A stretch of DNA of 32,000 nt, from the NCBI RefSeq assembly GCF_000009965.1, contig NC_006624.1:150001-182000 (forward strand), given 5' to 3'. Positions 10,088-31,035 of this stretch are shown piece by piece. The position numbers and the translations under genes were made by a program. Under the pieces are notes generated by a model that ran no database searches, was not told where the DNA came from, and worked only from the letters and a program-made list of their open reading frames with translations. The DNA is from Thermococcus kodakarensis KOD1. GTDB lineage: Archaea; Methanobacteriota_B; Thermococci; Thermococcales; Thermococcaceae. Within the stretch, counting starts at the first letter, position 1, and each line of letters opens with the position of its first letter.

Positions 10088-10533
10088 CCATTCACCCCCG
10101 CGAGCTTGAAAAACTCATCGGCCTCTTCAGTGAGGTAGAAAGCTTTCACACCGGCAGACCTGGCCATTTCGGCCATTTTTCGGTCGTTGGTCAGGAGAAG
10201 GGCGTTGATATGTTGTGCAGTCGCAACGAAGTAGAGGTCAGGAATGCGATGACCGGTTGAAAAGGCGAGTTCAAGGATCCTATCGGACAAAAGGCCTTCT
10301 CCCACAAAGTCTGCAACGAGTTCCATATATATTTCGTGAGCTTCCCTCACCATCTCTTGGGAAAGGAATCTAGATAGAACTGATACGAACTCGAACTCCC
10401 CGAGCCGCGGAGCATAGATTTCAAGAATGCCCATTTCCGAGAGCTTGGCGATCCTTTTGGCGACTTCAGACCTGTCGGGATAAAAACTGGAAAAAAGATT
10501 AACCACAACAGAGGTATCGAGGACAACTTTCAT
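10084..10533 (-). CDS. vapC: PIN-domain ribonuclease toxin (VapC-like)
   Basis: 149 aa. PIN acidic residues are in the expected contexts ([11 protein letters not shown]..., ...LLTNDRKM). It overlaps the upstream small ORF by 4 nt. Confidence 0.85.
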
Positions 10534-11714: not shown

Positions 11715-11723
11715 GAGCACCAC

Positions 11724-11798: not shown

Positions 11799-13274
<1,476 letters not shown>

Positions 13275-13365: not shown

Positions 13366-17535
<4,170 letters not shown>

Positions 17536-17563: not shown

Positions 17564-17614
17564 TGTAAAAATTTTGAGTTTTTAAGGTTTATTTTGACGA
17601 AAAAATGTCAATAC
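17564..17614 (-). promoter_or_regulatory. purL promoter with shared pur element
   Basis: The minus strand reads ATTGACATT-N17-CTTAAAAA-ctcaaaa-TTTTTACA, lying 28 nt upstream of the purL ATG. The same block occurs upstream of purD, purC and purT. Confidence 0.5.
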
Positions 17615-17624
17615 ACGTTTGCTT

Positions 17625-18146
17625 CTAAACTCTTAAATCACGTTTAAAATAGGCTACAAGCCAGAATGCAGAGACCGCTATGGCCAATTCCATGATGCCT
17701 GCCGTGAGGAGCACGAAACTGACCCCCATTTTGTCTGCGAGCACTCCTCCCCCTGCCATTGAAACAAGGGAGAATGCCGAAGTCAGAAAGTACTCAAAGG
17801 ACAAGACCCTCCCTAAAAGATCAGAGGGAACCGTCTTTTGGAACAGCGTCTGTAGGGAAATGTTGAGAACGCTGTTAGCGGCGCCGTTAAAGACTCCTAT
17901 CGCTGCCGCCAGGGACAGATAACCCACCTGGCTCCACATTATTGGGGCGAGTGCCGTCATAAAGAGGCCAGCGATGAACGTCGTCTCATCAGAGAACCTG
18001 TCCCCAAGGAGGCTCATCAGAAAACTTCCTATGAAGAATCCCGCACCGAGGGCCGTGAGCAGGACGCCGTAGCCGACCTCGGCCGAAGCTGACAAGCCCG
18101 CCGAGTAGGGAACCAAAAGCACGTTTATTATTCCCCCGCCTATCAT
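17625..18146 (-). CDS. MFS transporter, C-terminal half (split gene)
   Basis: 173 aa and about 6 TM segments. Its ATG overlaps the stop of the N-terminal-half ORF (TTATGATAG). The two ORFs together make one ~410-aa MFS protein. Confidence 0.7.
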   Translation of the reverse strand: MIGGGIINVLLVPYSAGLSASAEVGYGVLLTALGAGFFIGSFLMSLLGDRFSDETTFIAGLFMTALAPIMWSQVGYLSLAAAIGVFNGAANSVLNISLQTLFQKTVPSDLLGRVLSFEYFLTSAFSLVSMAGGGVLADKMGVSFVLLTAGIMELAIAVSAFWLVAYFKRDLRV

Positions 18147-18856
18147 AAGCCCCCGGAGATTAAAAGAAGAGTTAGCACAGGCCTGGACGTTTTAACGAAT
18201 GCCAGGCCTAATTTAACCTCCTCCAGAAAGCTGTCCTCCATGTCGGAGGACGGCTCTTCAACCACATCAAGCTTCTTTAGGAGTATCACCGAGATCCCAA
18301 AGATTATGGCCGCTAAGAGGGGCGTGCGTTCCCTACCAATCGCAAGGATCATGAGGGAAGCGAGCGTGGGGCCCAGAGTATCTATCAGGTCATCGGCTAA
18401 TGTCAACAGCGAATTGGCTGTTTTAAGCTGGTCAGTTTTGACTATTGAGGGGATTATTGCGGAGCGGGCAGTTCCAAAAAACAGCGAACAGGCATCGAGC
18501 AGGAAGGTGACAAAGTACAGATACAGGAGAAGATAGATGCTGATGGAGGAGTTAAAAACCGCGGCGAGAGACAGCACGAAAACCGCTTTGAGAAGGGTTG
18601 AGGTTACCATAACCTTTTTTCTGCCGTGTCTGTCCACGATCACTCCAACTACTGGCGAGAGTAGTAAAAGCGCCAGTGTTTTTGCAATGAACACCCCCGA
18701 AGTGTCCGCTGTGGAAGACTGGTTGTAAATGTAGAAGACTACGCCGATGAAGAAGAGGTATTCGGCGATTCTTGAGATTAGCTGGTTGATAAGCAGATAG
18801 GGGAAGTTCTTCCGCGTAAGGAGGTCTTTTTTGGAGTTTAGGCTTGGAACTTCCAT
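18143..18856 (-). CDS. MFS transporter, N-terminal half (split gene)
   Basis: About 6 TM segments and the MFS loop motif VDRHGRKKVM. ATG 18856 after GGTGCTGATT is preferred over TTG 18877. The frame ends at 18143 next to a C5 run (18150-18154). Confidence 0.7.
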   Translation of the reverse strand: MEVPSLNSKKDLLTRKNFPYLLINQLISRIAEYLFFIGVVFYIYNQSSTADTSGVFIAKTLALLLLSPVVGVIVDRHGRKKVMVTSTLLKAVFVLSLAAVFNSSISIYLLLYLYFVTFLLDACSLFFGTARSAIIPSIVKTDQLKTANSLLTLADDLIDTLGPTLASLMILAIGRERTPLLAAIIFGISVILLKKLDVVEEPSSDMEDSFLEEVKLGLAFVKTSRPVLTLLLISGGL

Positions 18857-18884
18857 AATCAGCACCACACGCTCCAACCCTGCC

Positions 18885-20381
18885 TTAGACTCCGAACAGC
18901 AACCTTGGAATGTCCCTAACCCTCTCGTCCGTGTAGTTTATGAATGCCTTGAGGAGCCGGTAGATTTCGAAGAGCCTCTCCTCCTCATTGGTTCTTGGCT
19001 TTTCTCCCCTATCCGCGCGCGAAAAGATGTCTATAACATCGAAGCGCTTAGCTAAAAGCCTCGGCGTTTCCTCCTCCATAAGCCAGTTTATGAAGTAGTA
19101 GACGTTGAAGGCCTTTTCTCTGTCCATTAGATAATGCTCTCTAACGAGTGAAAAAGCCCCCACAATGACGTTCTCCAGTTCCTCCGACGAGAGTTTTTCC
19201 AGGGCCTTCAGGTACTCCTCTTTTAGCTCCCTCACGGTTTCATCCTCGCGGTAGCTTGATTTCCAGAGTTCAACACCCTTTAGCACCCTCTTTGGGTTCC
19301 TGACGTAAACAGCACCTTTATTTCCGTCGACGATTACCTCATCGCCGTCCCTTATCGCTTCAACGTCAACCCCGACCACGCAGGGAATTCCGAGCTCCCT
19401 CGCTATTATCGCCGGGTGGGAGAGAATGCTATCCACCTTCGTCACTATTCCTGCGGCCTTCGCGAAGAGGTTGTAGTGCTCGGCGTGGAGAACGTAGGTA
19501 ACGAGAACCTCGCCTTCCCCAAAAATCATCTCGGCCTCTTCTGGGGGCTGGTCGTCCAGCACAAACCGCGCCCTACCTCTCGCCACTCCAGGGCTCGCCG
19601 GGATGCCCTTTAGAGCGTACCAGTTCTCGGTTTTTATATCTCCTGCTTCTCTGTTTTGCCCGAGCACCGTTATGTCCCTCGACTGGAGTATCCAGAGCGT
19701 CCCGTCGTAGGCCCACTCTATATCCTGCGGCCTTCCGAAGAGGGACTCAACTTCAAGACCCACGGTGAGAAGCTCCCTCATAAGCTCGTCATTAACCTCT
19801 TCCGGGTTTCTTGGAAGCAAAACCCGCTCAGCGCTTTTTCTACCACCCACAAGCTCCTCGCCGCTTCCTCTTACGAACTCGACTAAAGCTTTTTCCGGTT
19901 CTGTGGACGAGCGTGTAAAGAGCACACCAGCGAACTCGGGTGTTATCTCCCTCTGGACTATCGCCGCCATCCTCGACTGTCCACTTAGGCCCATCCGCTC
20001 CATGTAAGTCCTAACTCTCTTCGAACTGGCGCTCTTAAAGACCCTCTCTATTCCTTCGATTAAGTCGTTGAAGGAGTTTATCCCCGTAACGCTCTCGAAA
20101 ACCCCTGCAAAGCTTGCCTTGGAGCTATCCTCGACTGTCGCGGAACTGCGCACGACTACTGGAAACTCTCCTTCGAGGAGGTAGGGAGAGGTGAAGTAGT
20201 CCTTCACTTCTTCCACGACTTCTTGGGGGAGCTTTCCTTCCTCTTTCCAGAGGTCGTAAGCCCTCGTGGTCACCACGAAGCCAGTGGGGACGTTGAAGTA
20301 CCTTGCGAGGATCGAAAGACGGTGGGCCTTGTTCCCAATTTCATTCACGCTGCCCCCAGCGGAAAGCGAGCGGACGAACAT
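18885..20381 (-). CDS. PEP-utilising-enzyme family phosphotransferase (PPDK_N ATP-grasp + swivel phospho-His domain + unknown helical C-terminal domain)
   Basis: The N-terminus reads IGNKAHRLSILARYFNVPTGFVVT...DIEWAY (PEP/pyruvate-binding ATP-grasp type). The mobile domain reads SILSHPAIIARELGIPCVVGV with the His retained. The last ~150 aa are helical, with no motif I recognise and no TIM-barrel PEP domain. Confidence 0.75.
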   Translation of the reverse strand: MFVRSLSAGGSVNEIGNKAHRLSILARYFNVPTGFVVTTRAYDLWKEEGKLPQEVVEEVKDYFTSPYLLEGEFPVVVRSSATVEDSSKASFAGVFESVTGINSFNDLIEGIERVFKSASSKRVRTYMERMGLSGQSRMAAIVQREITPEFAGVLFTRSSTEPEKALVEFVRGSGEELVGGRKSAERVLLPRNPEEVNDELMRELLTVGLEVESLFGRPQDIEWAYDGTLWILQSRDITVLGQNREAGDIKTENWYALKGIPASPGVARGRARFVLDDQPPEEAEMIFGEGEVLVTYVLHAEHYNLFAKAAGIVTKVDSILSHPAIIARELGIPCVVGVDVEAIRDGDEVIVDGNKGAVYVRNPKRVLKGVELWKSSYREDETVRELKEEYLKALEKLSSEELENVIVGAFSLVREHYLMDREKAFNVYYFINWLMEEETPRLLAKRFDVIDIFSRADRGEKPRTNEEERLFEIYRLLKAFINYTDERVRDIPRLLFGV

Positions 20382-20460: not shown

Positions 20461-21132
20461 TTACTTCCTCGCCCACTCCACCATGCTCCTGAACAGCTTC
20501 AGCCCGTCCTCACTGCCCAAAAAGCGGTCGCTCGCCCTCTCTGGGTGAGGCATCGTTCCGAGGACGTTGCCATTCTCGTTTGCTATCGCCGCTATGTTGA
20601 GGAGCGAGCCGTTCGGGTTCGCTTCCTCCGTGATGTTGCCTTCCTCGTCGCTGTACTGGAAGGCGATTCTGACCTTTGAGGGGTCGTCAGCGTAGTAGTT
20701 GCCCTCGGCGTGGGCTATCGGCATCCTGATGACCTCTCCGGGTTCGTAGAACTGGGTAAATGGGGTTTCGGTATCGGCGACCCTGAGGTGCACCCACCTG
20801 CAGATGAACCTCGGAACTTTGTTCGGCCTCAACGCCCCGGGTAAAAGGCCGGCCTCAGTCAGAACCTGAAAGCCGTTACATATCCCGAGGACGGGCTTCC
20901 CATCTCGGGCGAACTCCTTCACTTCCTCAATTATCTCCTGACGAGCTGCTATAGCCCCTGCCCTTAGGTAGTCGGCGTAGCTGAAGCCCCCGGGAAGGAC
21001 GACGCCGTCAAAGTCCTTAAGCGAGGTCTTGTACCACACTCGCTCAGCTTCCGCCCCAGCCTTCCGTATAGCTCTCTCAGTCTCGAAGTCGCAGTTCGTT
21101 CCCGGAAAGACAACGACGGCAAACTTGACCAT
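20461..21132 (-). CDS. purQ: phosphoribosylformylglycinamidine synthase subunit PurQ (glutaminase)
   Basis: Nucleophile elbow GICNGFQ and triad MPHPER are both intact. Confidence 0.95.
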
Positions 21133-21133
21133 G

Positions 21134-21376
21134 TCAGCTCACCGGCTCTATGCTGTACTCCCACTCGTGGATGAGGGGATTGGCGAGTAGCTTCCTGCAC
21201 ATCTCCTCGACCTCTTCCTCCGGCCTTTCGCTCTCAAGCTCGAACTCGAAGTACTTGGGAACGCGCAGGTTCTCCACGCTGAACCCGAGGTTCTTCAGGG
21301 CGTTTCCTATGACCCTTCCCTCTGGGTCGTTGAGACCTTCCTTGAGCCTTACGATGACCTTAACCTTCCACTTCAT
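21134..21376 (-). CDS. purS: phosphoribosylformylglycinamidine synthase subunit PurS
   Basis: [32 protein letters not shown]. The start is ATG 21376 (SD GAGGTGAT) or ATG 21382. The longer ORF-track version would overlap purP-2. Confidence 0.85.
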
Positions 21377-21386
21377 CCTCATCACC

Positions 21387-22538
21387 TCACGTAACGACCT
21401 TCTCAAGCTCGTCCAGCTCAATTGCCCTCTTGATTTCGAGCGCAACCCTTCTTCCCGTGCTCATCTCCTTCCGCCAGAGGGCGTTGCCGTAGGGATGTCC
21501 CATCGCCATGTGGATGTTAGTTCCTCCCCCAGTTCTTGGTGCCACATCGTAGATGTAGAAGTTCAGATCCTTGTCCACAGCGGTCTGGAGCGTGAACGGC
21601 CCGATTATTCCGGGTGGATAGTATCTCTTTGTTGCCTCGACGTACTTCTCGGCCATGTCGAATACCTTCTCCAGAAGGGACTCACGGAGAGTTGAGGATG
21701 CATGACCTGTGACGGTATATTCGGGCTCGAACTGCCACTCTGGAAGTGTGAGCTGCTGGCTCGCTGGAAGCCTAACGTGGCCGTCAAGGCTCGTCTCGAA
21801 GCGCCAGTCTATTCCGAGGAGCTCTATCTCCTCATCGAGCGGCGAGTAGAAGAAGTCGAAGTTGAAGACCGGGCCGATTATGTAGCGCTCTATTCTAGCC
21901 TTGGCGAGATCTTCCTCTGTGATGACGCCAAGCTTCATTAAGCGCTCTGACTTCTCCCTGAACTCCCTGTAGGAAGCGGCCGTGAAGAAGCCCCTCTCAA
22001 GCCTCTTCTTTGCGTGGGGGAGCTTGACTATGACGAGGCCTACCTCGTCGATTTCTTCCGGCTTAACGGGTTCTGGGTAAGGCAGCCCTGCCTTCTCAAG
22101 GAGCCAGTAGTAACTCTTCTCCTCGCTCCTCTCCTCGCTTCTCAGAAGGTTTCTGCTCCCGAAGAGAGGCACAAGGAACTCGTTCTCAACCCTGTCAATG
22201 CCAGTGTAGACAACAAAGGAGCGGTTCGGAACGAAGATAACGTTCCTCTTCCTCAGCTCTTCCTGAACCTCGATTATCTGACCGAACTTCTCAAGAACGA
22301 TTACATCATCAATGAAGCCCTTAGTCAGGCCGTCTCTCGTCTTCTTCTCCTTAAAGTACTCCGCATAAGTCCTGTGCCGCCCCCTCTGGGCAACCACGAT
22401 TGTCTTAAAACCTTCGGCCTTGGCGCCATCGGCTATGTCAAGGGCCGAGTGGCTCCCGATGACGCCCACCTTTATCTTATCCTTCTCATACCCTTCAAGA
22501 ACCTCAAGAATTTGCTTCCGTTCGATCATTTCACTCAC
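21387..22538 (-). CDS. purP: PurP paralogue 2 (FAICAR synthetase family, divergent)
   Basis: 383 aa, clearly homologous to the 14402-15397 product but divergent (GSHSALDIADGAKAEGF, GPFTLQT, DVAPRTGGGTN). It overlaps the purD 3' end by 8 nt. Confidence 0.8.
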   Translation of the reverse strand: MSEMIERKQILEVLEGYEKDKIKVGVIGSHSALDIADGAKAEGFKTIVVAQRGRHRTYAEYFKEKKTRDGLTKGFIDDVIVLEKFGQIIEVQEELRKRNVIFVPNRSFVVYTGIDRVENEFLVPLFGSRNLLRSEERSEEKSYYWLLEKAGLPYPEPVKPEEIDEVGLVIVKLPHAKKRLERGFFTAASYREFREKSERLMKLGVITEEDLAKARIERYIIGPVFNFDFFYSPLDEEIELLGIDWRFETSLDGHVRLPASQQLTLPEWQFEPEYTVTGHASSTLRESLLEKVFDMAEKYVEATKRYYPPGIIGPFTLQTAVDKDLNFYIYDVAPRTGGGTNIHMAMGHPYGNALWRKEMSTGRRVALEIKRAIELDELEKVVT

Positions 22539-23838
22539 CCCTCATAGCCCTAACAAGCTCTATTCTCCTTGCTATGCTCTCCCTCGTCCCCACGTCCTTC
22601 CTGTAGAAAATTTCCCCCCTTACGTGCCTTATTCCAGCTGAGGCTATTCTCTCGGCCTCCTCCAGCGAGTCAGCAATTCCAACAACGGCCAAAGCCCTTG
22701 AGCCGAGCATCCTGAAGTTCTCGTCGAGGGAAGCGTAGTAGACTCTAGCCCCTTCCTCCCTAATTTTGGCCTCATCCACGTGAAGCTTTATTCCCCTTAC
22801 CGGGTTGGTTGGGTAGCCTTTTGGAGCGATGTACTTCACAACCGTTGCCTTCCGCTCAAATTCTGCTCCCTTCAGGTTGCCGTCCACTATTTCCTCGCCG
22901 ATCTCAACGAGAGAACGCTTCAGAATCGGCAGGACGTTCATTGCCTCTGGATCGCCGAAGCGGGCGTTGAACTCTATTATCTTCGGCTCGTCCTTGGCGA
23001 GCATGAACTGGCCGTAGAGGATGCCCTTGTAGGGGGTTCCGTTCTTCCTCATGGCTTCCACAGTGGCTTTGAGTGTCTCAAGAGCTTTCTCGTAGTCTTC
23101 TTTAGTTATAAACGGTAGTCGGTGGTCTTCGCAGGAGTAAGAACCCATACCCCCTGTTATCGGTCCTACGTCGCCCTCGTATGCGTGGGGGTAGTCCTGT
23201 GCGAGGGGCATTGGGACGACTCTCTTCCCGTCGGTGAAGACCTGGAAGGTAAACTCCACGCCGTCGGTGCGCTCCTCGATGAGGACTTTTCCGTCCCTCT
23301 TTATCAGCTCCTCGGCGTAGGCTTTAGCCTCCTCGTTGTCCTTCAGCTGGTAGCCGACGACCTTGACACCCTTTCCACCCGTGAGGCCAAGGGGCTTGAC
23401 GACAACTGGCCTTCCAAAGTCGTCGATCCAGGATTTCATCTCTGAAACGTCGTCGAAGACCTTGAAGAGCTTCCTTCCGGGAATCTTGTACTCTTCCATC
23501 AGCCACCTCGCGAAGGCCTTGTTGGTCTCGAGCATGGCCGCTTCCCTTGTGGGTCCTACCGTTGGAACCCCGTTCTCTTCCAGAACGTTGACGATGCCCT
23601 TCTCAAGGGGCGCCTCCGGACCGATGAAGGCCATATCTACTCCCCACTTGAGGGCAAAGTCGAGGACTCTCGGGACGTCGGTTTCCTTCGCGAGGGCGTA
23701 GTCCTTTGCGAGCCTCGCGATTCCGGGGTTTTTGTGGCCTGCCACAACGTAAAGCTCAGCATCTCTGGCAAGGACTTCAGCGATCGCGTTTTCTCTCCCA
23801 CCTGCACCCACGAGCAGAACGCGCATGAGTTTCACCAT
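22531..23838 (-). CDS. purD: phosphoribosylamine-glycine ligase
   Basis: ATP-grasp enzyme (VLLVGAGGRENAI, EFNARFGDPE). ATG 23838 lies about 25 nt from the TATA, suggesting a leaderless transcript. ATG 23826 is an alternative start. Confidence 0.95.
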   Translation of the reverse strand: MVKLMRVLLVGAGGRENAIAEVLARDAELYVVAGHKNPGIARLAKDYALAKETDVPRVLDFALKWGVDMAFIGPEAPLEKGIVNVLEENGVPTVGPTREAAMLETNKAFARWLMEEYKIPGRKLFKVFDDVSEMKSWIDDFGRPVVVKPLGLTGGKGVKVVGYQLKDNEEAKAYAEELIKRDGKVLIEERTDGVEFTFQVFTDGKRVVPMPLAQDYPHAYEGDVGPITGGMGSYSCEDHRLPFITKEDYEKALETLKATVEAMRKNGTPYKGILYGQFMLAKDEPKIIEFNARFGDPEAMNVLPILKRSLVEIGEEIVDGNLKGAEFERKATVVKYIAPKGYPTNPVRGIKLHVDEAKIREEGARVYYASLDENFRMLGSRALAVVGIADSLEEAERIASAGIRHVRGEIFYRKDVGTRESIARRIELVRAMRGE

Positions 23839-23843
23839 TTTTG

Positions 23844-23879
23844 TGTAAAAAATTGAGGTTTTTAAGCTTTATTTTTACA
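23844..23879. promoter_or_regulatory. purD promoter: palindromic TGTAAAAA...TTTTTACA around the TATA box
   Basis: TGTAAAAAATTGAGGTTTTTAAGCTTTATTTTTACA. In purD orientation this reads CTTAAAAA-cctcaat-TTTTTACA-caaaa-ATG. Confidence 0.5.
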
Positions 23880-23939
23880 TTTAATTGGCAAAAAACTGTT
23901 TAATAGAAGTTGCTCCTAACTACTGGAGAGGGGACACCT

Positions 23940-24605
23940 ATGGGGCTTTCAAGGTTGGTTGATTCTGTTCCTGAAAACGGAGTACTCACAGTTATTGCGA
24001 GGGGGCCCGATTCCAACGGGGACGTTATTGGGGTAAGGCTTCTCAAAGAGCTTATAAGGCGTGAAGAGCCTGTCTTTGTGGTTCTCTACGAGCCACTCCT
24101 CGTTTTCAGGTCTAACCTGGAAAGAGTAGGGATTTCTCTGGAAGATGTGCTTGGGGAGAAGTTTGTAGTTTTTGATGTCTTCGGGAGCTTTAAGGGGATA
24201 GATCGGAATCTCCCCCACGTTTATCAGCTGAGCGGGTACCTTGACGACGGTGTTTTTGTCACCAAGTACAGTGATTTTGTAAGAACTCTATCCGAGAAAA
24301 TATCGGCCAGCCGTATCTGGCTCTTTACGTATTTGAGTTCTGGGACCTGCAAGCTCTTCAAGAACCCCAGGAAGACCTACCAGTTGGTATGGAGTACAAA
24401 AACTGAAGTGACGAGTAAAATCCCAGACATTAGGGCCATACTGGTCTATGACAGTACAGACTGCCCCGAGATAGAGGACTTTATCTACACGTTCTCCGAT
24501 ATTGTGGTCGAGGTTACGAGAGAGATGTTTAAGAGAAAGGCATACGTAACGAAGGGACTTGAACCCGAGGTTTTCGATCCTTTTGAGGGTGATGAACATG
24601 ATTAA
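23940..24605 (+). CDS. RecA/KaiC-like superfamily protein lacking a Walker A P-loop (paralogue 1)
   Basis: 221 aa. Where KaiC/RadA-like proteins have GxPGxGKT it reads VIARGPDSNGDVIG. There is a Walker-B-like strand FVVFDVFGS. GGAGAGGGG SD before ATG 23940. It is homologous by eye to the next ORF. Confidence 0.6.
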   Translation: MGLSRLVDSVPENGVLTVIARGPDSNGDVIGVRLLKELIRREEPVFVVLYEPLLVFRSNLERVGISLEDVLGEKFVVFDVFGSFKGIDRNLPHVYQLSGYLDDGVFVTKYSDFVRTLSEKISASRIWLFTYLSSGTCKLFKNPRKTYQLVWSTKTEVTSKIPDIRAILVYDSTDCPEIEDFIYTFSDIVVEVTREMFKRKAYVTKGLEPEVFDPFEGDEHD

Positions 24606-25353
24606 ACTCGGGATAAAGCCTCTAGACGAGGCCCTTGGTGGGGTTAAGGAGCACTCATACATACTGCTTCACGAGGAAGACCCTCGCTCCCTCGGCCGTG
24701 AGCTAGTCTTTGAGTTCATGAAGAATAAGCTTGAGAACGATAACCTGGTAGGGTTCTTCAACATCAGCCATGCTCTTCCAATCCTCATTGAGATCATGAA
24801 AAAGAGGGGCATTAATGTTGATGAGTACCTTGATTCGCTCAACCTAGCAATAGTGGATACCTTTGGAAGTCTTTACGGCCCGAGGATAGAGAGGCGCGGT
24901 GTCTGGTACCTTTCAGGTTCCCTCTCCTATGAGCTTCTGTCCAGGAAATACGCTGAGGTCGTCAGGGCACACAAGGAGCTCTGGAAGAAGGAGAACATGT
25001 TTGAGGGCAGGGAGCTATGGGGAGTGGCTATGGACCTTTCGGAGTATTCAAATATTTTCGGGGAAGCCAACGCCCTGAGCTACTTCGAGGTCTCTGCTGA
25101 GATTAGGAGACGCCACAGGGCCTACAGAGAATACCCAACGGGCACTAACATATGGGTCTTTTCTGGAAAGCCCGATCGTGTGTTCTCGTCCCTTTACAGG
25201 AGGGTCGATTACGTTGTGAGAACGAGGAGCGAGCTCACCGAAGAGGGGGTAAAGCGCTATATGTGCATACTCAAGGCCCCGGGGGTGTCTGATGTTATAT
25301 CATTCGAGTACTCATTCACCCGGAATGGCATTGAGATGAAGAGGACTGATTAG
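24598..25353 (+). CDS. RecA/KaiC-like superfamily protein lacking a Walker A P-loop (paralogue 2)
   Basis: 251 aa. The N-terminus GIKPLDEALGGVKEHSYILL mimics the KaiC-like TGIxxLDxxLGGGxxxGxxxLI lead-in. The P-loop position reads HEEDPRSLGREL, and the Walker-B-like strand reads LAIVDTFGS. The C-terminal RYMCILKAPG...FTRNGIEM resembles the KaiC-like tail. The start overlaps the upstream stop (ATGATTAA). Confidence 0.6.
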   Translation: MIKLGIKPLDEALGGVKEHSYILLHEEDPRSLGRELVFEFMKNKLENDNLVGFFNISHALPILIEIMKKRGINVDEYLDSLNLAIVDTFGSLYGPRIERRGVWYLSGSLSYELLSRKYAEVVRAHKELWKKENMFEGRELWGVAMDLSEYSNIFGEANALSYFEVSAEIRRRHRAYREYPTGTNIWVFSGKPDRVFSSLYRRVDYVVRTRSELTEEGVKRYMCILKAPGVSDVISFEYSFTRNGIEMKRTD

Positions 25354-25558
25354 GATTTTGAATTTTTATCTCGAGCCTTTTAATCGGCAAAAACAAAGAA
25401 GAATTAAGAGTGGGGGAGGATCCCCATTCTCAATTTTACCTTCCTCTCCCATTCCACTCTCTTATTCGAACTTGATTCCTGGTTACATCCCCTTTACTTA
25501 ACCCTGCTGATTTTAGTACACCCACGTAACTTACCAGCGTGTAGTGCTATTCTCCGGA

Positions 25559-25575
25559 CTATTTAAATTTTTCGG
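25559..25575 (-). promoter_or_regulatory. orphan BRE/TATA-like element in a long non-coding spacer
   Basis: The minus strand reads CCGAAAAATTTAAATAG (purine-rich BRE plus TTTAAATA). No ORF of 60 aa or more lies downstream. Two perfect palindromes sit just upstream, at 25581-25596 and 25602-25613. Confidence 0.3.
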
Positions 25576-25743
25576 ATATTGTCCAAATCATTGGACTAAT
25601 CAGCATATATGCTCATTTTGTTAATGGCCAGAACCGTATCTAAGGAATGCCCACATCACTTAATTTTTGCCATAGGTGTTCATAACTTTGTAATAACATT
25701 CAACAGTTCGAAGCGGAAGAAAATTGAAGAATCAAAACAGGCG

Positions 25744-27033
25744 TCAGAGTAAGTGCTTTCTCTTCTCGTAGTCCTGGGAGTGCCAGTTAGCTGATCTCGT
25801 CCTCAGCTCTATCGAGTGGGCCACCATTTCGGCCTTCCTCTTTGCCTCTCCCACGTCTTTGTCCCACGCTATTGCAACGCCGAGCCTCCTTCCAGGGTAG
25901 GCCTCGGGCTTGCCGAAGAGCCTCACTGTGGCGTTCGGGACGCTGAGAGCCTTTGCCAGCCCCCTAAAGCGCGGTGAATAACCGGAAACGTTGGCCTTTA
26001 TGACGTGAGTGGCCGCTGGAGTAAGCATAGGGAAGAGCCTGTAACCGTCTACCCACTCGCCTGGAATCGGGAGTCCGAGAACTGCCCTAAGGTGAAGTCC
26101 AAACTCCGAAAATCCAGTGGGGTGAGATGCCAGAGTCACCATGCCGGTGTCGTGGGGCCTCGGGGAGACCTCGTTTGCCCATACCTTATCGCCTTTCACG
26201 AACATCTCGACGCCAAAGATGCCCAGTCCGCCGAGAACGTCCGTTATGCGCTTCGCTATCCTGTAAACTTCCCTCTCGGCCCTTTCGCTTATCTCGGCTG
26301 GCTGCCAGCTCGAGTGGTAGTCGCCGTCAATCTGATAGTGGCCAACGGGCTTGGGGAAAGTAGTTACTACCTCACCGTTTTCGTCGTAGTGCCTCACAGC
26401 TAACTCCGTAATCTCCACATCGAAGTCTATGTGCTCCTCCACGATGAGTTTCTCGGCACTTCCCCTGGCTTTCTTCTTGGCCTCCTCCCAGGCTTTCGGG
26501 ACGTCCTCAGGGCCTTTGACGAAGTAGGAGCCCTTCCCCGAGGAGCTCATTATGGCCTTGGTGTGGCAGGGGTAGCCTATCTTTTCACAGGCCTCGTAGA
26601 GCTCGTCGAGAGTTGAGGCATAAGTGTATCTGGAAGTTGGAACCTTCGCTTCCCTTGCCAGGGTCTCCCTCGTCCTCTCGCGGTGCATTGCTATCCACGT
26701 TGCTTTGGCGTTCGGAACTACGAAGTAGCCGTCTTTCTCAAGCTCGAAGAGGGCATCTAGATTTATAGCCTCGATCTCTGGAATTATCGCATCCGGTTTC
26801 TCCCTCTCGACGACTGAAAAGAGAAAGTCTGCTTTCCTCATGTCTCCCACGTAGGAGCGGTGGGCAATCTGCATAGCTGGGGCGTTGGCGTAGCGGTCAA
26901 CGGCGATGACCTCAACTCCCAGCCTTTGGGCCTCGATCGCTATCTCCTTCCCGAGCTCTCCGCTCCCGAGGAGGACTATCTTCTGAGCGGAATCAGTCGT
27001 GGCAGTTCCAAGTTCATCGCGGGGCCTTATCAT
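25744..27033 (-). CDS. purT: formate-dependent phosphoribosylglycinamide formyltransferase (GAR transformylase 2)
   Basis: ATP-grasp enzyme (VLLLGSGELGKE). ATG 27033 follows the GGGGTGGTGCTC SD. Confidence 0.95.
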   Translation of the reverse strand: MIRPRDELGTATTDSAQKIVLLGSGELGKEIAIEAQRLGVEVIAVDRYANAPAMQIAHRSYVGDMRKADFLFSVVEREKPDAIIPEIEAINLDALFELEKDGYFVVPNAKATWIAMHRERTRETLAREAKVPTSRYTYASTLDELYEACEKIGYPCHTKAIMSSSGKGSYFVKGPEDVPKAWEEAKKKARGSAEKLIVEEHIDFDVEITELAVRHYDENGEVVTTFPKPVGHYQIDGDYHSSWQPAEISERAEREVYRIAKRITDVLGGLGIFGVEMFVKGDKVWANEVSPRPHDTGMVTLASHPTGFSEFGLHLRAVLGLPIPGEWVDGYRLFPMLTPAATHVIKANVSGYSPRFRGLAKALSVPNATVRLFGKPEAYPGRRLGVAIAWDKDVGEAKRKAEMVAHSIELRTRSANWHSQDYEKRKHLL

Positions 27034-27052
27034 GAGCACCACCCCTTGTTTT

Positions 27053-27122
27053 AACGTTTAAATGTTAAAAACTTAAGATATTTAAGCCTTTTTAGTCATG
27101 AAAATGGCAAACTTTTTAAGCC
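27053..27122. promoter_or_regulatory. divergent purT / purM promoter region
   Basis: purT orientation: CTTAAATA-tcttaag-TTTTTAACA (plus-strand 27063-27086). purM orientation: GGCAAACTTTTTAAGCC (27106-27122). Confidence 0.4.
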
Positions 27123-27150
27123 GTTTCTCCAACTCTCCCCGGTGGTGCTC

Positions 27151-28155
27151 ATGCTGACCTACGCTCAGGCGGGAGTCGATGATGAAAAGACTTCGAGGGC
27201 CTTGAAAAGCATAATCTCTCTTGCCAAGGGGACTTTCGAGTTCAGAAGGGGTAAGCTCGGAGAGCCGGCCGAAGACCTCGGCCACTACGCGGCCTTAATG
27301 GACTTTGGTGACTTCTATCTTGCCATTACTACGGACGGAGTTGGGACGAAGGTTTTGGTGGCTGAGGCCGTCGGGAAGTTCGACACGATAGGAATAGACA
27401 TGATAGCGATGAACGTAAACGACCTGCTCTGCGTTGGGGCCGAGCCGGTCGCTTTGGTTGACTATCTTGCCGTTAAAGAGCCGGATGAAAGAGTGTTCGA
27501 GGGGATAGCGCAGGGCCTATACGAGGGGGCAAGGCAGGCTGGAATAGCTATCGTCGGAGGCGAGACCGCTGTGATGCCTGATCTAATCAACGGCTTTGAT
27601 CTGGCTGGAACGGCCATCGGAGTCGTTGAGAAGAGGAAGGTGATTACCGGGAAGAAAATCAGGCCGGGGGATGCTGTGATTGGAATAAAGAGCTCGGGAA
27701 TACACTCCAACGGTCTTACTCTTGCTAGAAAGCTCCTCATCCCCAAGTACGGTCTCGACTACGAGTACGAGGGGAAAAAGCTCTGGGAGTGGCTCCTCGA
27801 ACCTACGAGGATTTACGTCAAGGCCGTCCTTGAGCTTATCGAGAACGTTAAGGTGCACGGCTTGGCACACATAACAGGAGGGGGCCTTCTCAACCTCAAG
27901 CGCCTTACTTCCTTCGGCTTCTCCATTGAGATGCCGCCTATTGAGGGAATCTTCAGGCTAATCTATGAGAACGGCGTCCCTCTTGAGGAGATGTTCCGCG
28001 TTTTCAACATGGGCGTCGGGATGGTTGCCGTTGTCCCGCGGGAGGAGAAGGAAGAGGCCCTCCAGCTCCTAAACAGACACTTCGAGAGCTTCGAGCTCGG
28101 AAAGGTTGTGGGAGAGCCTGGAATAAGGGTCGAGAATTATGGGATAAAACTTTAA
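27151..28155 (+). CDS. purM: phosphoribosylformylglycinamidine cyclo-ligase (AIR synthetase)
   Basis: Motifs TTDGVGTKV and [13 protein letters not shown] 27151 follows the GGTGGTGCTC SD. Confidence 0.95.
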
Positions 28156-28187: not shown

Positions 28188-28352
28188 ATGGAGCTGACGG
28201 TTAGGAAGAAGGCATTCCTTGAGGAGCTTCCGGACGTTGTTAAAACGGCCGTTGAGGAGTACGGCACTGCCCTGAAAGGCATAGAAATAAAAGAGGACGA
28301 TAAGGGCTGCTACACCGTCATGATTACCTACGAACGGGAGCTTCGCCTGTGA
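28188..28352 (+). CDS. small hypothetical protein (54 aa), not in the ORF track
   Basis: ATG 28188 follows a GGTGAT SD, 32 nt after the purM stop. My translation is MELTVRKKAFLEELPDVVKTAVEEYGTALKGIEIKEDDKGCYTVMITYERELRL. Codon usage matches the neighbouring genes (AGG, AAG, GAG, G/C-ending codons). It fills an otherwise unexplained gap. Confidence 0.5.
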   Translation: MELTVRKKAFLEELPDVVKTAVEEYGTALKGIEIKEDDKGCYTVMITYERELRL

Positions 28353-29043
28353 TCCTCTCATAGAGCCTCTCGTAGGCGGAGATGAGATCGCCCTTGCCGA
28401 AGCGGAAGACGTCCTTGTCGAGGCTCTCCTTGGTTTCGGCATCCCAGAAGCGGCAGGTGTCGGGGCTTATCTCGTCGCCGAGGACTATTTCGCCCCTCGT
28501 GTTCTTTCCGAACTCCAGCTTGAAGTCAACCAGGATTATCCCCCTCTCCGCGAAGTACTTTCTCAGGACATCGTTCACCTGAAGGGCAATTTTTTCCATC
28601 TCTTTAAGTTCGCTCTCACCCACACCCAGGACTCTGGCGTGGTACTGGTTTATCATGGGGTCCCCAAGGTCATCGTTCTTGTAATAAAACTCTATTATCG
28701 GCTCTGGGAGTTCAGTGCCCTCCTCAAGCGGGAGGCGCTTCTTTAGACTTCCAGCAACGACGTTCCGCACCACAACCTCAAGGGGATACATCTTCAGCCT
28801 CTCGACTATGAGCCTGTTGTCTCCGGCAACCCCAATGAAGTGTGTCTTTATGCCGCTCGCCTCAAGAACCCTGAAAAGATGGGCGCTTATCTGGGCGTTG
28901 AGCCAGCCCTTTCCTCTGAATTGGGCCTTCTTCTCGCCATTAAAAGCGGTCGCATCGTCCTTGAACTCCATAATGACCTTACCGTCATCGAGAGGGATTA
29001 TTTTCTTGGCCTTTCCTTCGTAGACGTCCACGCTAATCACCAT
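28324..29043 (-). CDS. purC: phosphoribosylaminoimidazole-succinocarboxamide (SAICAR) synthase
   Basis: YEGKAKKIIPL..., LEVVVRN and GDEISPDTCRFWD. ATG 29043 lies about 25 nt from the TATA, suggesting a leaderless transcript. Confidence 0.95.
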   Translation of the reverse strand: MVISVDVYEGKAKKIIPLDDGKVIMEFKDDATAFNGEKKAQFRGKGWLNAQISAHLFRVLEASGIKTHFIGVAGDNRLIVERLKMYPLEVVVRNVVAGSLKKRLPLEEGTELPEPIIEFYYKNDDLGDPMINQYHARVLGVGESELKEMEKIALQVNDVLRKYFAERGIILVDFKLEFGKNTRGEIVLGDEISPDTCRFWDAETKESLDKDVFRFGKGDLISAYERLYERITGEAPVRR

Positions 29044-29048
29044 TTTTA

Positions 29049-29101
29049 TGTAAAAACTTTGTTCTTTTTAAGAATTTTTTTGCCATTAGAATGTCAATCA
29101 C
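29049..29101 (-). promoter_or_regulatory. purC promoter with shared pur element
   Basis: The minus strand reads ATTGACATT-N17-CTTAAAAA-gaacaaag-TTTTTACA-taaaa-ATG. Confidence 0.45.
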
Positions 29102-29207
29102 TGGGCAAAGTTTTTAAACTTGAATCTGCAAAAGACTATCGCATGAAACGTTTAAATTAGCATGTTTAAATCAAAAACCCCTTTCAAGAAGGTGCCCGGT
29201 GAGAGCA

Positions 29208-30557
29208 ATGCGCGAAAAGTGCGGGGTCTTTGCAGCACTCTCAGAGAACGCGCCGAAGAAAGCATACTACGCCCTGATAGCCCTCCAGCACCGCGGCCAG
29301 GAGAGCGCCGGAATAAGTGTATGGAAGCACAGGATAAGAACCGTCGCTGGCAGGGGGCTTATCCAGGACGTTTTCAATGGGAAAACCCTCTCATCCCTTC
29401 GCTCCAACCTCGCGATCGGTCACGTCCGCTACTCCACATCCGGCTCTCTCAGCGAGACTCAGCCTCTTGAAACGGAGTGCTGTGGAAAGAGGATAGCAGT
29501 TGCCCACAACGGCACCCTCACGAACTTTCTCCCTCTGAGAAAGAGTTATGAGAATAGGGGGGTTAGGTTTCACCACTCCGTTGATTCTGAACTTCTTGGG
29601 ATTTCGTTTCTCTGGCACCTGAATGAGACCGGCGACGAGTTTGAGGCCATGAGAGAAGTCTTTAACGAGGTTAAGGGCGCTTATTCGGTTGCTCTGCTCT
29701 TCGACGGCAAAATCCTCGTAGCGAGAGATTCCGTAGGGTTCAGGCCCCTGAGCTATGGGATTGGAGACGGCCACTACTTTGCGAGCGAGGATTCGGCTTT
29801 GAGGCTTTTCGTTGACGAGACTGAGGGCGGGGAAATAAGGGACGTTCGGCCGGGTGAGGTCTTTCTACTCTCGGAAGGGAGTGTGGAGAGTAGAGTTCTG
29901 GCGAGGGAGAAGCACCACCACTGCGTCTTCGAGTACATCTACTTCGCCCGGCCAGACAGCACAATAGACGGCGTGAACGTCTATCATGCGAGGGTGAAGA
30001 TGGGAAGGGAACTTGCTAGGGAGAGTCCCGCCGATGCAGATGTTGTGATAGCGGTTCCCGACTCTGGGAGGGCAGCAGCGTTGGGCTTTTCGATGGAAAG
30101 CGGGATACCCTACTCGGAGGGGCTGATAAAGAACCGCTACATCGGGAGGACTTTCATAACCCCCGGCCAGTTCTACAGGGAGCTTAAGGTAAAGCTCAAG
30201 CTCTCGCCCGTGAGGGAGGTCATCAACGGAAAGAGAGTCGTTCTCGTTGATGATTCCATAGTCAGGGGGACGACCATGAGGAGACTAGTCTCCCTTCTGA
30301 GGAAAGCGGGAGCGAAGGAAGTGCACGTGAGAATAGCGTCGCCGCCTATAAGGCACCCCTGCTACATGGGTATAGACATCCCGACGAGGCACGAACTTAT
30401 AGCTGCCTTCGGGAGCGTTGAGAAGGTGAGGGGAGCGATAGGTGCTGACAGCCTGGCATATTTAAGCGTTGAGGGCCTTATCAGGGCTGTTGGCAAGAAA
30501 GACCTATGCCTGGCGTGCCTCACAGGGGAGTACCCTGAGTGGGCCTTCAGGTTTTAA
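29208..30557 (+). CDS. purF: amidophosphoribosyltransferase
   Basis: Short propeptide followed by the Ntn Cys (MREKCGVFA). PRTase motif [14 protein letters not shown]-terminal Cys ligands ([18 protein letters not shown]). ATG 29208 follows GGTGA. Confidence 0.95.
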
Positions 30558-31035
30558 TGAACCGCTTCCTCAAAGCTTCAACAACCTTATCGCTGAAGCG
30601 GACTCCTTTGGTCCTGAGCTCAAGCAACAGGGGTTCGAGGTCTTCTTTTAGGAGGCCCCTTTCTTTGGCGATGAAAAGCAGCGCCAGGGTTCCCGCAACC
30701 TTTATTCCGAGGGACTTCGCTATGATCCTCGGGATCCTCTCATCGAGAACCAGCAAATCCGCGTTCAGCTCCCTGGCGAGCACTATGGCCTCGGCCTCTC
30801 CAATCTCGATCTCCTTCATGAGGATTTCAACGCTCAACCTGTCGTTTACGTCCTGAACCTTTATCCATTCTGCTTCGCTCACTTCCCGGGAGCCAGGACG
30901 GCCTCTGCCCTTCTCTACTACCTCTGCCCATACGGCTCGGGGGATGACAATCTCACCAAACAGCTCTCGTAGAAGTTCCAGTTTTTCAATCTTTGCAAGG
31001 GCTATTAGCGGTCCGGAGTCGGATACAACTATCAT
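30547..31035 (-). CDS. DUF3368 / COG2405 PIN-like nucleic-acid-binding protein (putative toxin)
   Basis: [22 protein letters not shown]...[11 protein letters not shown]...[10 protein letters not shown]. It overlaps the upstream UPF0175 gene by 4 nt. Confidence 0.8.

What the first reader, a model, noticed from the sequence alone, without database searches (positions are those of the whole stretch)
23940..25353. Translationally coupled pair of paralogous RecA/KaiC-like proteins that have lost the P-loop, embedded in the pur cluster
The two ORFs (221 and 251 aa) overlap by 8 nt (ATGATTAA) and are homologous to each other. Compare RVGISLEDVLGEKFVVFDVFGS...VYQLSGYL with KRGINVDEYLDSLNLAIVDTFGS...VWYLSGSL. 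ORF2 opens like KaiC/RadA-family ATPases (GIKPLDEALGGVKEHSYILL). Where GxPGxGKT should follow, the two ORFs read HEEDPRSLGREL and ARGPDSNGDVIG, with no Lys/Thr. They look like nucleotide-hydrolysis-dead derivatives. A published comparative-genomics proposal holds that KaiC-like ATPases and their inactivated homologues act as signal-transduction hubs in archaea (Makarova, Galperin and Koonin, mBio 2017, cited from memory). Here the pair is transcribed divergently from purD across the palindromic pur promoter element. Its own promoter uses the same GGCAAA-type BRE as purM, purF and purC. A third possibly related domain (7TM-DUF835, 13366-14409) lies in the same cluster. Codons are visibly more A/T-ending than in the flanking pur genes. 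My hypothesis is a pseudo-ATPase sensor/adaptor module tied to purine metabolism. No DNA-binding motif is evident, so any regulation would be indirect.
Basis: partly seen in the sequence, partly recalled or inferred. Interest (0 to 1): 0.7.

Follow-up and report, generated by a model that had tools for sequence, protein, structure and literature searches.

The report
Dead KaiC-like protein pair beside purine genes
Two overlapping genes of Thermococcus kodakarensis (TK0205/TK0206) encode a pair of related RecA/KaiC-fold proteins that have lost the ATP-binding loop; the pair always sits next to purine-nucleotide genes in Thermococcales, so it is probably a non-enzymatic sensor or regulatory partner for purine metabolism, but its function has never been tested.

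Summary
ORF1 (23940-24605, TK0205) and ORF2 (24598-25353, TK0206) overlap by 8 nt. They are full-length paralogues (hhalign probability 97.5%). Both fold as KaiC/RecA-like domains without a Walker A Lys/Thr. The ORF2 orthologue PH0321 already has a crystal structure of unknown function (3BS4).

The family is confined to Thermococcales. Both genes are under purifying selection (dN/dS 0.05-0.21), and no orthologue has an intact P-loop.

The stop/start junction overlaps or abuts in all 13 loci scored. In 10 further loci from Pyrococcus, Thermococcus and Palaeococcus the pair lies divergent from purD, and in 9 of them purE follows directly. In three other loci (two M39 assemblies, one MAG) it lies between ribonucleotide reductase and a phosphoribosyltransferase.

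Two things were not anticipated. The pair is a swappable cassette: a relative with 96%-identical PurD has ORF1/ORF2 only 35/45% identical. In rich medium its mRNA is roughly 15-35 times more abundant than that of neighbouring pur genes.

Best reading: a heteromeric pseudo-ATPase sensor/adaptor for purine metabolism. The mechanism is inferred.

The parts
23874..23891 (.). Degenerate copy (TTTAC-N8-GGCAA) of the conserved pur-promoter palindrome TTGAC-N8-GTCAA. It lies between the divergent TATA boxes of purD and ORF1.
   Evidence: The same element sits 36 nt from the purD start in L005 (perfect copy) and L015. Across 14 loci there are 28 hits with at most 1 mismatch, against 6.45 +/- 2.43 in shuffles.
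23898..23928 (+). ORF1 promoter: TATA-like tgTTTAATAg (23898-23907) and the mapped primary transcription start at 23928, giving a 12-nt 5' UTR.
   Evidence: Table S2 of PMC4247193 lists a primary TSS at 173928(+) for TK0205. Window coordinate = genome coordinate minus 150000. Sequence.
23940..24605 (+). ORF1 = TK0205, 221 aa. Inactivated KaiC/RecA-fold protein and the fast-evolving partner subunit. Its ex-P-loop region varies between clades, while the DxFGS motif (D79, G82, S83) is retained.
24598..24605 (+). 8-nt overlap ATGATTAA (ORF2 start codon / ORF1 stop codon). Overlap or abutment (spacer of 3 nt or less) is found in all 13 loci with an intact pair.
24598..25353 (+). ORF2 = TK0206, 251 aa. 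Inactivated KaiC/RecA-fold protein and orthologue of PH0321 (PDB 3BS4). It has a remodelled ex-ATP site whose core residues are invariant or nearly so (E26, D28 and G33 invariant; R30 and S31 in all but one locus; D87, F89 and S91 invariant).
25354..25743 (.). AT-rich spacer (38% GC) with no ORF, at the position where purE sits in most relatives. It is part of the replaced cassette. It contains an orphan minus-strand TSS at 25538.
22531..23838 (-). purD, the conserved divergent neighbour of the pair (context).
13366..14409 (+). Membrane protein with a C-terminal DUF835 domain, described in the literature as an inactivated KaiC domain. It is a possible third component. Its position within pur clusters varies between species.
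   Evidence: No sequence similarity to ORF2 was detectable.

Best explanation
TK0205 and TK0206 are transcribed from one promoter and translated as a coupled pair. They most likely assemble into a hetero-oligomer of two paralogous KaiC/RecA-fold subunits that cannot hydrolyse ATP.

ORF2 keeps a strictly conserved, remodelled pocket at the former nucleotide site. That pocket holds acidic and polar residues (E26, D28, R30, S31) in place of GxxGxGKT, together with the Walker-B-like D87. I propose ORF2 is the ligand-binding subunit, sensing a purine nucleotide or pathway intermediate. ORF1 has a variable ex-P-loop region and far fewer invariant residues, so I propose it is the structural partner.

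The complex has no DNA-binding domain. It would therefore act through protein contacts, either on the unidentified factor that binds the TTGAC-N8-GTCAA pur box or on an enzyme of purine metabolism. The closest analogies are pseudoenzyme regulatory subunits such as HisZ and PyrI.

Shown here: the fold, the loss of Walker A, paralogy, purifying selection, conserved coupling, conserved purine-gene neighbourhood, and expression. Inferred: heteromer formation, ligand binding, and the regulatory output.
For: - Fold and dead P-loop.
- Paralogy.
- Stop/start overlap or abutment in all 13 loci scored, and the same three clades for both proteins. This suggests co-evolution of two subunits.
- ORF2 has 36 invariant residues across 13 loci, including the ex-P-loop and Walker-B positions. 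ORF1 has 15, and its ex-P-loop region varies.
- dN/dS is 0.05-0.21, similar to purD at 0.04-0.11.
- Neighbourhood, type 1: purD <-> ORF1-ORF2 with purE following in 9 loci (L001-L004, L006, L013-L017); the same arrangement without purE in this window and L005.
- Neighbourhood, type 2: class II ribonucleotide reductase, then ORF1-ORF2, then a 153-aa phosphoribosyltransferase, in L007 and L011/L012. A pur-box-like site lies upstream of the transferase gene.
- The pur box lies in the shared purD/ORF1 promoter.
- One TSS at 23928 and none for TK0206. In the non-TEX library, reads are 964 and 808 for TK0205/TK0206 against 26-59 for purD, purT and purM in purine-rich ASW-YT medium. A sensor should be present when the pathway is off.
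- TK0206 protein was detected and rose 3.7-fold in stationary phase.
- 3BS4 was crystallised with an unknown bound peptide, which suits a protein-binding adaptor.
- Other inactivated KaiC-type genes sit beside guaB: TM-DUF835 here, and the soluble P0067 in P. pacificus.
Against: - There is no direct evidence for ligand binding, heteromer formation or any regulatory effect. A heterodimer model could not be computed.
- No partner protein or DNA-binding factor was identified, and no transcription factor is encoded in the window.
- The high expression comes from unreplicated dRNA-seq read counts in one medium type.
- More distant relatives of the family (P0058, P0099) sit among translation and transcription genes with no purine link. 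The purine association may therefore be specific to this subfamily.
- A cluster of invariant acidic residues would also fit a metal-dependent catalytic site.
- Cassette replacement and fast evolution are unusual for a core regulator.
Confidence: 0.5

Rival explanations
1. Non-catalytic scaffold or assembly/stabilising factor for purine enzymes, especially PurE. A KaiC-like ring would hold enzymes together so that heat-labile intermediates (phosphoribosylamine, N5-CAIR) are channelled at 85 C.
For: ORF1-ORF2-purE lie on the same strand, 67-100 nt apart, in 9 loci. KaiC-like single-domain proteins are oligomeric by established knowledge. 3BS4 carries a bound peptide. The instability of N5-CAIR and the lack of PurK in some Thermococci are noted in PMC3261824.
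Against: purE has its own TATA box and pur box between ORF2 and purE. The pair persists, under purifying selection, where purE is not adjacent (this window, L005) and where no pur genes are within 10 kb (L007, L011). Its mRNA is about 15-35 times that of the pur genes in rich medium, which does not fit a stoichiometric scaffold. It evolves much faster than its supposed clients.
Confidence: 0.2
2. A new enzyme on a RecA scaffold that fills a missing purine step. Candidates are the unidentified IMP cyclohydrolase of Pyrococci, or an ATP-independent substitute for PurK that feeds class I PurE.
For: PMC3261824 reports that three Pyrococci and T. sibiricus have no known IMP cyclohydrolase, that some Thermococci have class I-like PurE without PurK, and that almost any NMP-binding protein could act as a cyclohydrolase. 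ORF2 has invariant E26, D28 and D87 at the old nucleotide site. P. horikoshii carries the pair next to purE.
Against: T. kodakarensis has an active PurO (TK0430, per PMC3261824) yet keeps an intact pair, apparently acquired by transfer. The M39-type loci have the pair with salvage and reductase genes and no pur genes nearby. The family is absent from Crenarchaeota, which share the same gap. Between-clade identity of 36-50% is low for a pathway enzyme whose neighbours are 70-96% identical. Expression is uncoupled from the pur genes.
Confidence: 0.1
3. Accessory or selfish cargo (for example a conflict or defence cassette) that merely occupies a recombination-prone site between purD and purT and has no role in purine metabolism.
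For: Whole-cassette replacement occurs between near-identical flanks: DNA is 91% identical up to 23882 and from 25716, with nothing alignable between. GC3 is lower than in the neighbours. The clade pattern does not match the PurD identities, and T. kodakarensis/T. profundus ORF2 is 82% identical against 78% for PurD. PIN-domain genes are also inserted in the cluster.
Against: The same position and orientation are kept in three genera. Where the pair has moved, it is again next to nucleotide genes. It shares the pur-box promoter. There are no PADLOC hits. There are no toxin, nuclease or mobile-element domains. Purifying selection is steady.
Confidence: 0.07

Closest known systems
PH0321 of Pyrococcus horikoshii (PDB 3BS4, structural-genomics entry, 'uncharacterized protein ... 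in complex with an unknown peptide')
   Same: Orthologue of ORF2: profile E 6e-109, 46-47% identity, model-to-structure TM 0.94. It has the same gene context, purD <-> ORF1-like (219 aa) - PH0321 - purE.
   Different: Nothing functional is known. No paper on it was found.
Inactivated KaiC-like domains (iKaiC: DUF835/PF05763, MEDS/PF14417, iKaiC-REC), as used by Galperin et al. 2018 (PMC5847659), citing Makarova, Galperin and Koonin 2017
   Same: KaiC/RecA fold with a destroyed Walker A, proposed to act in signal transduction.
   Different: ORF1 and ORF2 are stand-alone proteins with no fused REC, PAS or membrane domain. They form a tandem paralogue pair and match neither the DUF835 model nor any other Pfam model above threshold. 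They have their own motif set (HExDPRSLG / DTFGS). They are tied to purine-nucleotide genes rather than to two-component or motility genes. The 2017 paper is not in the held library, so I could not check whether this family is listed there.
Single-domain archaeal KaiC-like ATPases (PH0284/2DR3, PH0186/2ZTS, SSO2452/2W0M, ArlH(FlaH)/4YDS) and the KaiC CI domain
   Same: Best structural matches after 3BS4, at TM 0.6-0.73. They share the N-terminal LDxxLGG motif and the Walker-B-like aspartate.
   Different: By established knowledge, those proteins keep GxxGxGK[ST] and bind ATP. In the exhaustive profile search, intact-Walker-A relatives appear only at E of about 1e-4 (P0088, P0089).
Wider 'YDxxSxGW' family of about 250-aa archaeal proteins (P0055, P0058-P0079, P0067 and others)
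   Same: Nearest sequence relatives outside the two subfamilies (E 1e-15 to 1e-3). They share S31, G33, P59, D87, F89 and K226 and also lack Walker A.
   Different: They are single genes, not pairs. Most sit among translation or transcription genes. Only the P. pacificus copy lies beside guaB.
Pseudoenzyme regulatory subunits encoded with biosynthetic genes (HisZ with HisG; PyrI with PyrB). Functional analogy only, from general knowledge.
   Same: A catalytically dead, or purely ligand-binding, protein encoded with pathway genes that confers feedback control.
   Different: There is no sequence or fold relationship, and the analogy is untested here.

Membership tests
KaiC/RecA-superfamily ATPases (Pfam PF06745 KaiC) | RecA-like alpha/beta core fold | tested here: met
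   Foldseek TM 0.6-0.73 to PH0284, PH0186, SSO2452 and KaiC CI for both models.
KaiC/RecA-superfamily ATPases (Pfam PF06745 KaiC) | Walker A P-loop GxxGxGK[ST] | tested here: not met
   ORF2 reads HEEDPRSLG and ORF1 reads ARGPDSNGD. No orthologue in 21 + 8 database sequences or 13 loci has Lys-Ser/Thr here.
KaiC/RecA-superfamily ATPases (Pfam PF06745 KaiC) | Walker B aspartate after a hydrophobic strand | tested here: met
   D87 (LAIVDTFGS) in ORF2 and D79 (VVFDVFGS) in ORF1 are invariant.
KaiC/RecA-superfamily ATPases (Pfam PF06745 KaiC) | Score above the curated Pfam/NCBIfam threshold | tested here: not met
   ORF2 scores 13.6 bits against a cut-off of 26.6. For TIGR03877 it scores 12.1 against 307. 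ORF1 has no hit.
KaiC/RecA-superfamily ATPases (Pfam PF06745 KaiC) | ATP binding and hydrolysis; hexamer formation | not testable with these tools
   Needs biochemistry.
Inactivated KaiC-like (iKaiC) proteins, in the sense of Galperin 2018 / Makarova 2017 | KaiC-like fold with disrupted nucleotide-binding motifs, retained under selection | tested here: met
   Fold. Motif loss. dN/dS 0.05-0.21.
Inactivated KaiC-like (iKaiC) proteins, in the sense of Galperin 2018 / Makarova 2017 | Role in signal transduction (fusion to, or operon with, sensor or output domains) | tested here: inconclusive
   There are no fused domains. The neighbours are enzymes. A TM-DUF835 gene is in the same cluster but at variable positions.
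DUF835 (PF05763) | Match to the Pfam model or detectable homology to the DUF835 domain | tested here: not met
   ORF1 and ORF2 have no PF05763 hit. hhalign of the ORF2 family against the DUF835 domain of this window gives probability 0.3%. The gene at 13366-14409 is itself a member (E 3.5e-34).
PH0321/TK0206 family (3BS4) | Full-length orthology to PH0321 | tested here: met
   E 6e-109 over residues 2-249. TM 0.94. Same synteny.
Anti-phage defence systems (PADLOC) | Match to a defence-system protein model | tested here: not met
   No hits at E <= 0.1 for ORF1, ORF2 or the DUF835 protein.

The most novel reading that the evidence does not exclude
The TK0205/TK0206 heteromer is the purine-sensing component of an undescribed archaeal feedback system. 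A pseudo-ATPase would bind a purine nucleotide or intermediate in its remodelled ex-ATP pocket. Through protein contacts it would then control the still-unknown factor acting at the TTGAC-N8-GTCAA pur box, or directly control a pur or salvage enzyme. This would be the first functional assignment for a stand-alone inactivated KaiC protein and the first regulator of purine synthesis in Thermococcales. A rarer and more radical alternative, the missing IMP cyclohydrolase or a PurK substitute, is not excluded; I put it at about 0.1.
Probability: 0.25. Interest if true: 0.75.

Novelty: new variant of a known kind. Interest (0 to 1): 0.55.

Why it matters
Inactivated KaiC-like proteins are abundant in archaea and have been proposed as signalling hubs. 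In the literature I could search, I found no stand-alone member with an assigned function or ligand. This family is small and lineage-specific. One subunit already has a crystal structure, and it occurs in a genetically tractable organism. Its conserved, specific metabolic neighbourhood (pur genes, purE, a salvage phosphoribosyltransferase, ribonucleotide reductase) makes it directly testable.

I also found no description of how Thermococcales regulate purine synthesis. The conserved palindrome found here, together with this pair, gives two concrete handles on that question.

If the minority enzyme reading were true, it would bear on the missing IMP cyclohydrolase and PurK steps noted by Brown et al. 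2011.

The cassette replacement between near-identical genomes is an unusual evolutionary pattern for genes embedded in a core biosynthetic cluster.

Tried and rejected
- Pfam, NCBIfam and PADLOC scans of both proteins gave only a sub-threshold KaiC hit for ORF2.
- hhalign of the ORF2 family against the DUF835 domain of this window gave no signal. The 'third related domain' rests on literature only.
- Literature searches for PH0321, 3BS4, TK0205/TK0206 and guessed Pyrococcus locus tags returned nothing functional, apart from a proteome table and the transcriptome supplements. The Makarova 2017 mBio paper is not held.
- The genome-contig scan returned only 7 loci, all MAGs. A full presence/absence census across Thermococcales, including whether M39-type genomes lack de novo pur genes, could not be made.
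- A search for a purE remnant in the 390-nt spacer found none. Rfam and repeat scans of 23700-25900 found nothing meaningful.
- The palindrome with 2 mismatches in the window alone is not above chance (12 against 11.1). Only the 1-mismatch-or-fewer, cross-locus analysis is significant.
- 'Decaying ATPase' is rejected because of purifying selection and family-wide loss of Walker A.
- A heterodimer structure prediction was not possible with the tools.
Full report
**Identity of the locus**

The window is Thermococcus kodakarensis KOD1. ORF2 is 100% identical to BAD84395.1 and ORF1 to BAD84394.1, that is TK0206 and TK0205. Gene coordinates in a published table show that window coordinate = genome coordinate minus 150000.

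ORF1 runs 23940-24605 (221 aa) and ORF2 runs 24598-25353 (251 aa). The ORF2 ATG lies inside the last codons of ORF1, giving the 8-nt overlap ATGATTAA.

Pfam scans confirm the neighbours, listed below in window order:

| Gene | Coordinates | Strand |
|---|---|---|
| guaA subunit (GATase) | 9521-10087 | - |
| guaA subunit (C-terminal) | 10791-11723 | - |
| guaB | 11799-13259 | - |
| membrane protein with DUF835 | 13366-14409 | + |
| purP-like | 14402-15397 | - |
| purL | 15394-17535 | - |
| purQ | 20461-21132 | - |
| purS | 21134-21445 | - |
| purP | 21387-22538 | - |
| purD | 22531-23838 | - |
| purT | 25744-27042 | - |
| purM | 27142-28155 | + |
| purC | 28324-29043 | - |
| purF | 29199-30557 | + |

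**What the proteins are**

Curated profile libraries barely see them. ORF2 scores 13.6 bits against Pfam KaiC (cut-off 26.6), and ORF1 has no hit.

Pairwise BLASTP between the two is weak (24% identity, E 5e-5). Alignments of their homologues (A1 with 21 sequences, A2 with 8) match each other over 204 columns with hhalign probability 97.5% and E 8.6e-12. They are full-length paralogues.

A profile of the ORF2 family hits one solved structure at E 6e-109: 3BS4, 'uncharacterized protein PH0321' of Pyrococcus horikoshii, crystallised 'in complex with an unknown peptide'. The ORF1 profile hits the same chain at 7e-7.

The AlphaFold2 models are confident, with pLDDT 93 and 87. Foldseek places both in the KaiC/RecA fold. 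ORF2 matches 3BS4 at TM 0.94, then PH0284, SSO2452, PH0186, KaiC CI and FlaH at TM 0.6-0.73. ORF1 matches 3BS4 at TM 0.79, then the same set.

In the strand-loop-helix where Walker A belongs, ORF2 reads H25-E-E-D-P-R-S-L-G33 and ORF1 reads A-R-G-P-D-S-N-G-D. Neither has the Lys-Thr/Ser. The Walker-B-like aspartate is kept in both (D87 in ORF2, D79 in ORF1).

**Not a decaying ATPase**

An exhaustive HMM search of 1.84 billion representatives found only 52 proteins at E <= 1e-3. Every close relative lacks Walker A. True GxxGxGKT KaiC proteins appear only at E of about 1e-4 (P0088, P0089).

Nei-Gojobori dN/dS for four locus pairs is 0.05-0.21 for ORF1 and 0.06-0.16 for ORF2, against 0.04-0.11 for purD.

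Across 13 loci ORF2 has 36 invariant residues:
- D10 and G14 of the KaiC-type LDxxLGG motif.
- E26, D28 and G33 at the ex-P-loop, with R30 and S31 conserved in all but one locus.
- D87, F89 and S91.
- N184, W186, R201, R220 and K226.

ORF1 has only 15 invariant residues, and its ex-P-loop segment differs between clades (ARGPDSNGD, DRDLESMLY, ERDSRSLGY). The former nucleotide site is therefore remodelled and conserved in ORF2 but relaxed in ORF1.

**Coupling**

In all 13 loci with an intact pair, the ORF1 stop overlaps or abuts the ORF2 start. The junction types are ATGA, ATGnnTGA/TAA, an 11-nt overlap, and spacers of 0-3 nt.

In KOD1 a single primary transcription start was mapped at 23928, which is 26 nt downstream of TTTAATA. 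None was mapped for TK0206 (PMC4247193 Table S2). The non-TEX library gives similar read counts for the two genes, 964 and 808.

Both proteins fall into the same three clades. Together these points argue for a stoichiometric heteromer. That step is inferred, not shown.

**Gene neighbourhood**

I obtained 13 related loci beyond the window and mapped window proteins, purE, the phosphoribosyltransferase and the reductase onto them.

- Nine loci have purD divergent from ORF1-ORF2, followed on the same strand by purE and then convergent purT. They are five Thermococcus MAGs, a T. eurythermalis-like contig, T. stetteri, T. profundus (where other genes replace purT), Palaeococcus pacificus and P. horikoshii.
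- KOD1 and one MAG (L005) have the same arrangement but no purE.
- L007 and the Thermococcus sp. M39 assemblies (L011/L012) have no pur genes within 10 kb. There the pair lies between a class II ribonucleotide reductase and a 153-aa phosphoribosyltransferase, all on one strand.

The common denominator is purine-nucleotide metabolism, not one particular enzyme.

More distant single-gene relatives with a YDxxSxGW motif mostly lie among translation and transcription genes. One in P. pacificus sits divergent from guaB, where KOD1 has the TM-DUF835 gene.

**The promoter element**

This is a degenerate copy of a palindrome, TTGAC-N8-GTCAA.

With at most 1 mismatch, the palindrome occurs 28 times in 254,698 nt of 14 loci. 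Local-composition shuffles give 6.45 +/- 2.43, with a maximum of 13.

Of the 28 hits, 24 lie in promoter regions of pur genes or of the salvage transferase, at fixed distances:
- 36 nt from the purC and purD start codons.
- 7-18 nt from purT.
- 11-12 nt from purE.
- 55 nt from the transferase.

In the divergent purD/ORF1 and purC/purF regions it lies between the two TATA boxes. At purT the mapped start (27055) falls inside it. This looks like the operator of an unidentified dimeric regulator. The window encodes no candidate transcription factor.

**Unexpected: a swappable cassette**

Pur enzymes are 70-96% identical among these loci, whereas ORF1 is 30-71% identical and ORF2 36-82%.

The MAG L005 has PurD, PurT and PurP 95-96% identical to KOD1, but its ORF1 is 35% and its ORF2 45% identical. 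At the DNA level the two are 91% identical up to 23882, the centre of the palindrome, and again from 25716. Nothing is alignable in between.

The KOD1 cassette instead resembles that of T. profundus:
- DNA is collinear from purD to the ORF2 stop at 76% identity.
- ORF2 is 82% identical against 78% for PurD.
- ORF2 dS is 0.84 against 1.40 for purD.

This explains the low GC3 of 53.6% and 63.5%, against 66-78% in the pur genes.

**Expression**

In ASW-YT medium, which contains yeast extract and tryptone, raw counts in the untreated library are as follows:

| Gene | Reads |
|---|---|
| TK0205 | 964 |
| TK0206 | 808 |
| purD | 26 |
| purT | 35 |
| purM | 59 |

The pair is therefore abundant when the pathway genes are low. 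TK0206 protein was detected and rose 3.7-fold in stationary phase (PMC4870337).

**Interpretation**

The best-supported reading is a heteromeric pseudo-ATPase, an inactivated KaiC-like pair. ORF2 would bind a small ligand in the remodelled pocket, and ORF1 would be the structural partner. The complex would act through protein contacts on purine metabolism. I put this at about 0.5.

The expression pattern, the persistence of the pair without purE or pur genes, and the fast evolution all favour a sensor or regulator over a scaffold (0.2) or an enzyme (0.1).

The enzyme idea deserves mention for three reasons. Brown et al. 2011 (PMC3261824) document a missing IMP cyclohydrolase in Pyrococci. They also document class I-like PurE without PurK in some Thermococci. 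Their paper does not mention this gene pair. Against the idea, KOD1 has an active PurO and the family is absent from Crenarchaeota, which share the gap.

A purely selfish or defence cassette is unlikely (0.07). Position and context are conserved, and there are no defence-model hits.

**Novelty**

The proteins are annotated as hypothetical or 'KaiC-like domain-containing', and one has an orphan structure. Inactivated KaiC domains are a known concept (PMC5847659).

I believe the following are new:
- The demonstration that this is a two-paralogue, translationally coupled family specific to Thermococcales.
- Its conserved embedding in purine-nucleotide neighbourhoods and in a pur-box promoter.
- The asymmetric conservation of the two subunits.
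- The cassette replacement.

I could not read Makarova et al. 2017, so prior mention there cannot be excluded.

Noticed in passing
window 17594-17611, 23874-23891, 27051-27068, 29080-29097; also L001-L017: A conserved palindrome, TTGAC-N8-GTCAA, lies in the promoters of purL, purS, purD/ORF1, purT, purC/purF and purE, and of a salvage phosphoribosyltransferase, at fixed distances from the start codons. It is a likely operator of an unidentified purine regulator in Thermococcales. There are 28 hits against 6.45 expected.
   Followed up: partly
window 23883-25715 versus L005 9274-10998: The whole ORF1-ORF2 cassette, including half of its promoter and the downstream spacer, is non-homologous between KOD1 and a MAG whose flanks are 91% identical in DNA. 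One breakpoint falls at the centre of the palindrome. The KOD1 version is T. profundus-like.
   Followed up: yes
window 25354-25743: purE, which follows ORF2 in 9 related loci, is absent here and has left no remnant. The spacer is 38% GC. It carries an orphan minus-strand transcription start at 25538 (PMC4247193) with a TATA-like TTTAAATA about 26 nt upstream. A 124-nt stretch (25495-25615) is 76% identical to DNA downstream of purE in T. stetteri. It may be a small RNA or a promoter relic.
   Followed up: partly
window 18885-20381 (-): A 498-aa protein with a PPDK_N ATP-binding domain and a PEP-utiliser mobile domain is embedded between purQ and purL. It is conserved at this place in T. profundus and in the T. 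eurythermalis-like contig. Its role in a purine cluster is unknown.
   Followed up: no
window 17625-18877 (-): An MFS transporter gene is split into two overlapping ORFs (243 + 172 aa). T. profundus has one intact 401-aa gene in its pur cluster. This is a probable frameshift or pseudogene in KOD1.
   Followed up: no
window 13366-14409; L003 16571-17326; L006 10365-11390; L014 11792-12904; L019 10001-10771: Genes for the membrane DUF835 (inactivated KaiC) protein occur inside pur clusters, but at different positions in different species. In P. pacificus a soluble inactivated KaiC paralogue (P0067) occupies the position divergent from guaB that DUF835 has in KOD1.
   Followed up: partly
window 10084-10533 (-) and 30547-31035 (-): PIN-domain genes, typical of toxin-antitoxin modules, are inserted between the two guaA subunit genes and directly after purF. 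Their GC3 is lower than that of their neighbours (53% and 61%).
   Followed up: no
window 14402-15397 and 21387-22538 (-): Two PurP-like genes (DUF1246/DUF1297) are in the cluster. Brown et al. 2011 note that their activities are unresolved and that one might be the missing IMP cyclohydrolase.
   Followed up: no
window 23940-25353, expression: In published dRNA-seq tables, TK0205/TK0206 reads are about 15-35 times those of the adjacent purD, purT and purM genes in rich medium. The pair's promoter is therefore active when the divergent purD promoter is nearly silent.
   Followed up: partly
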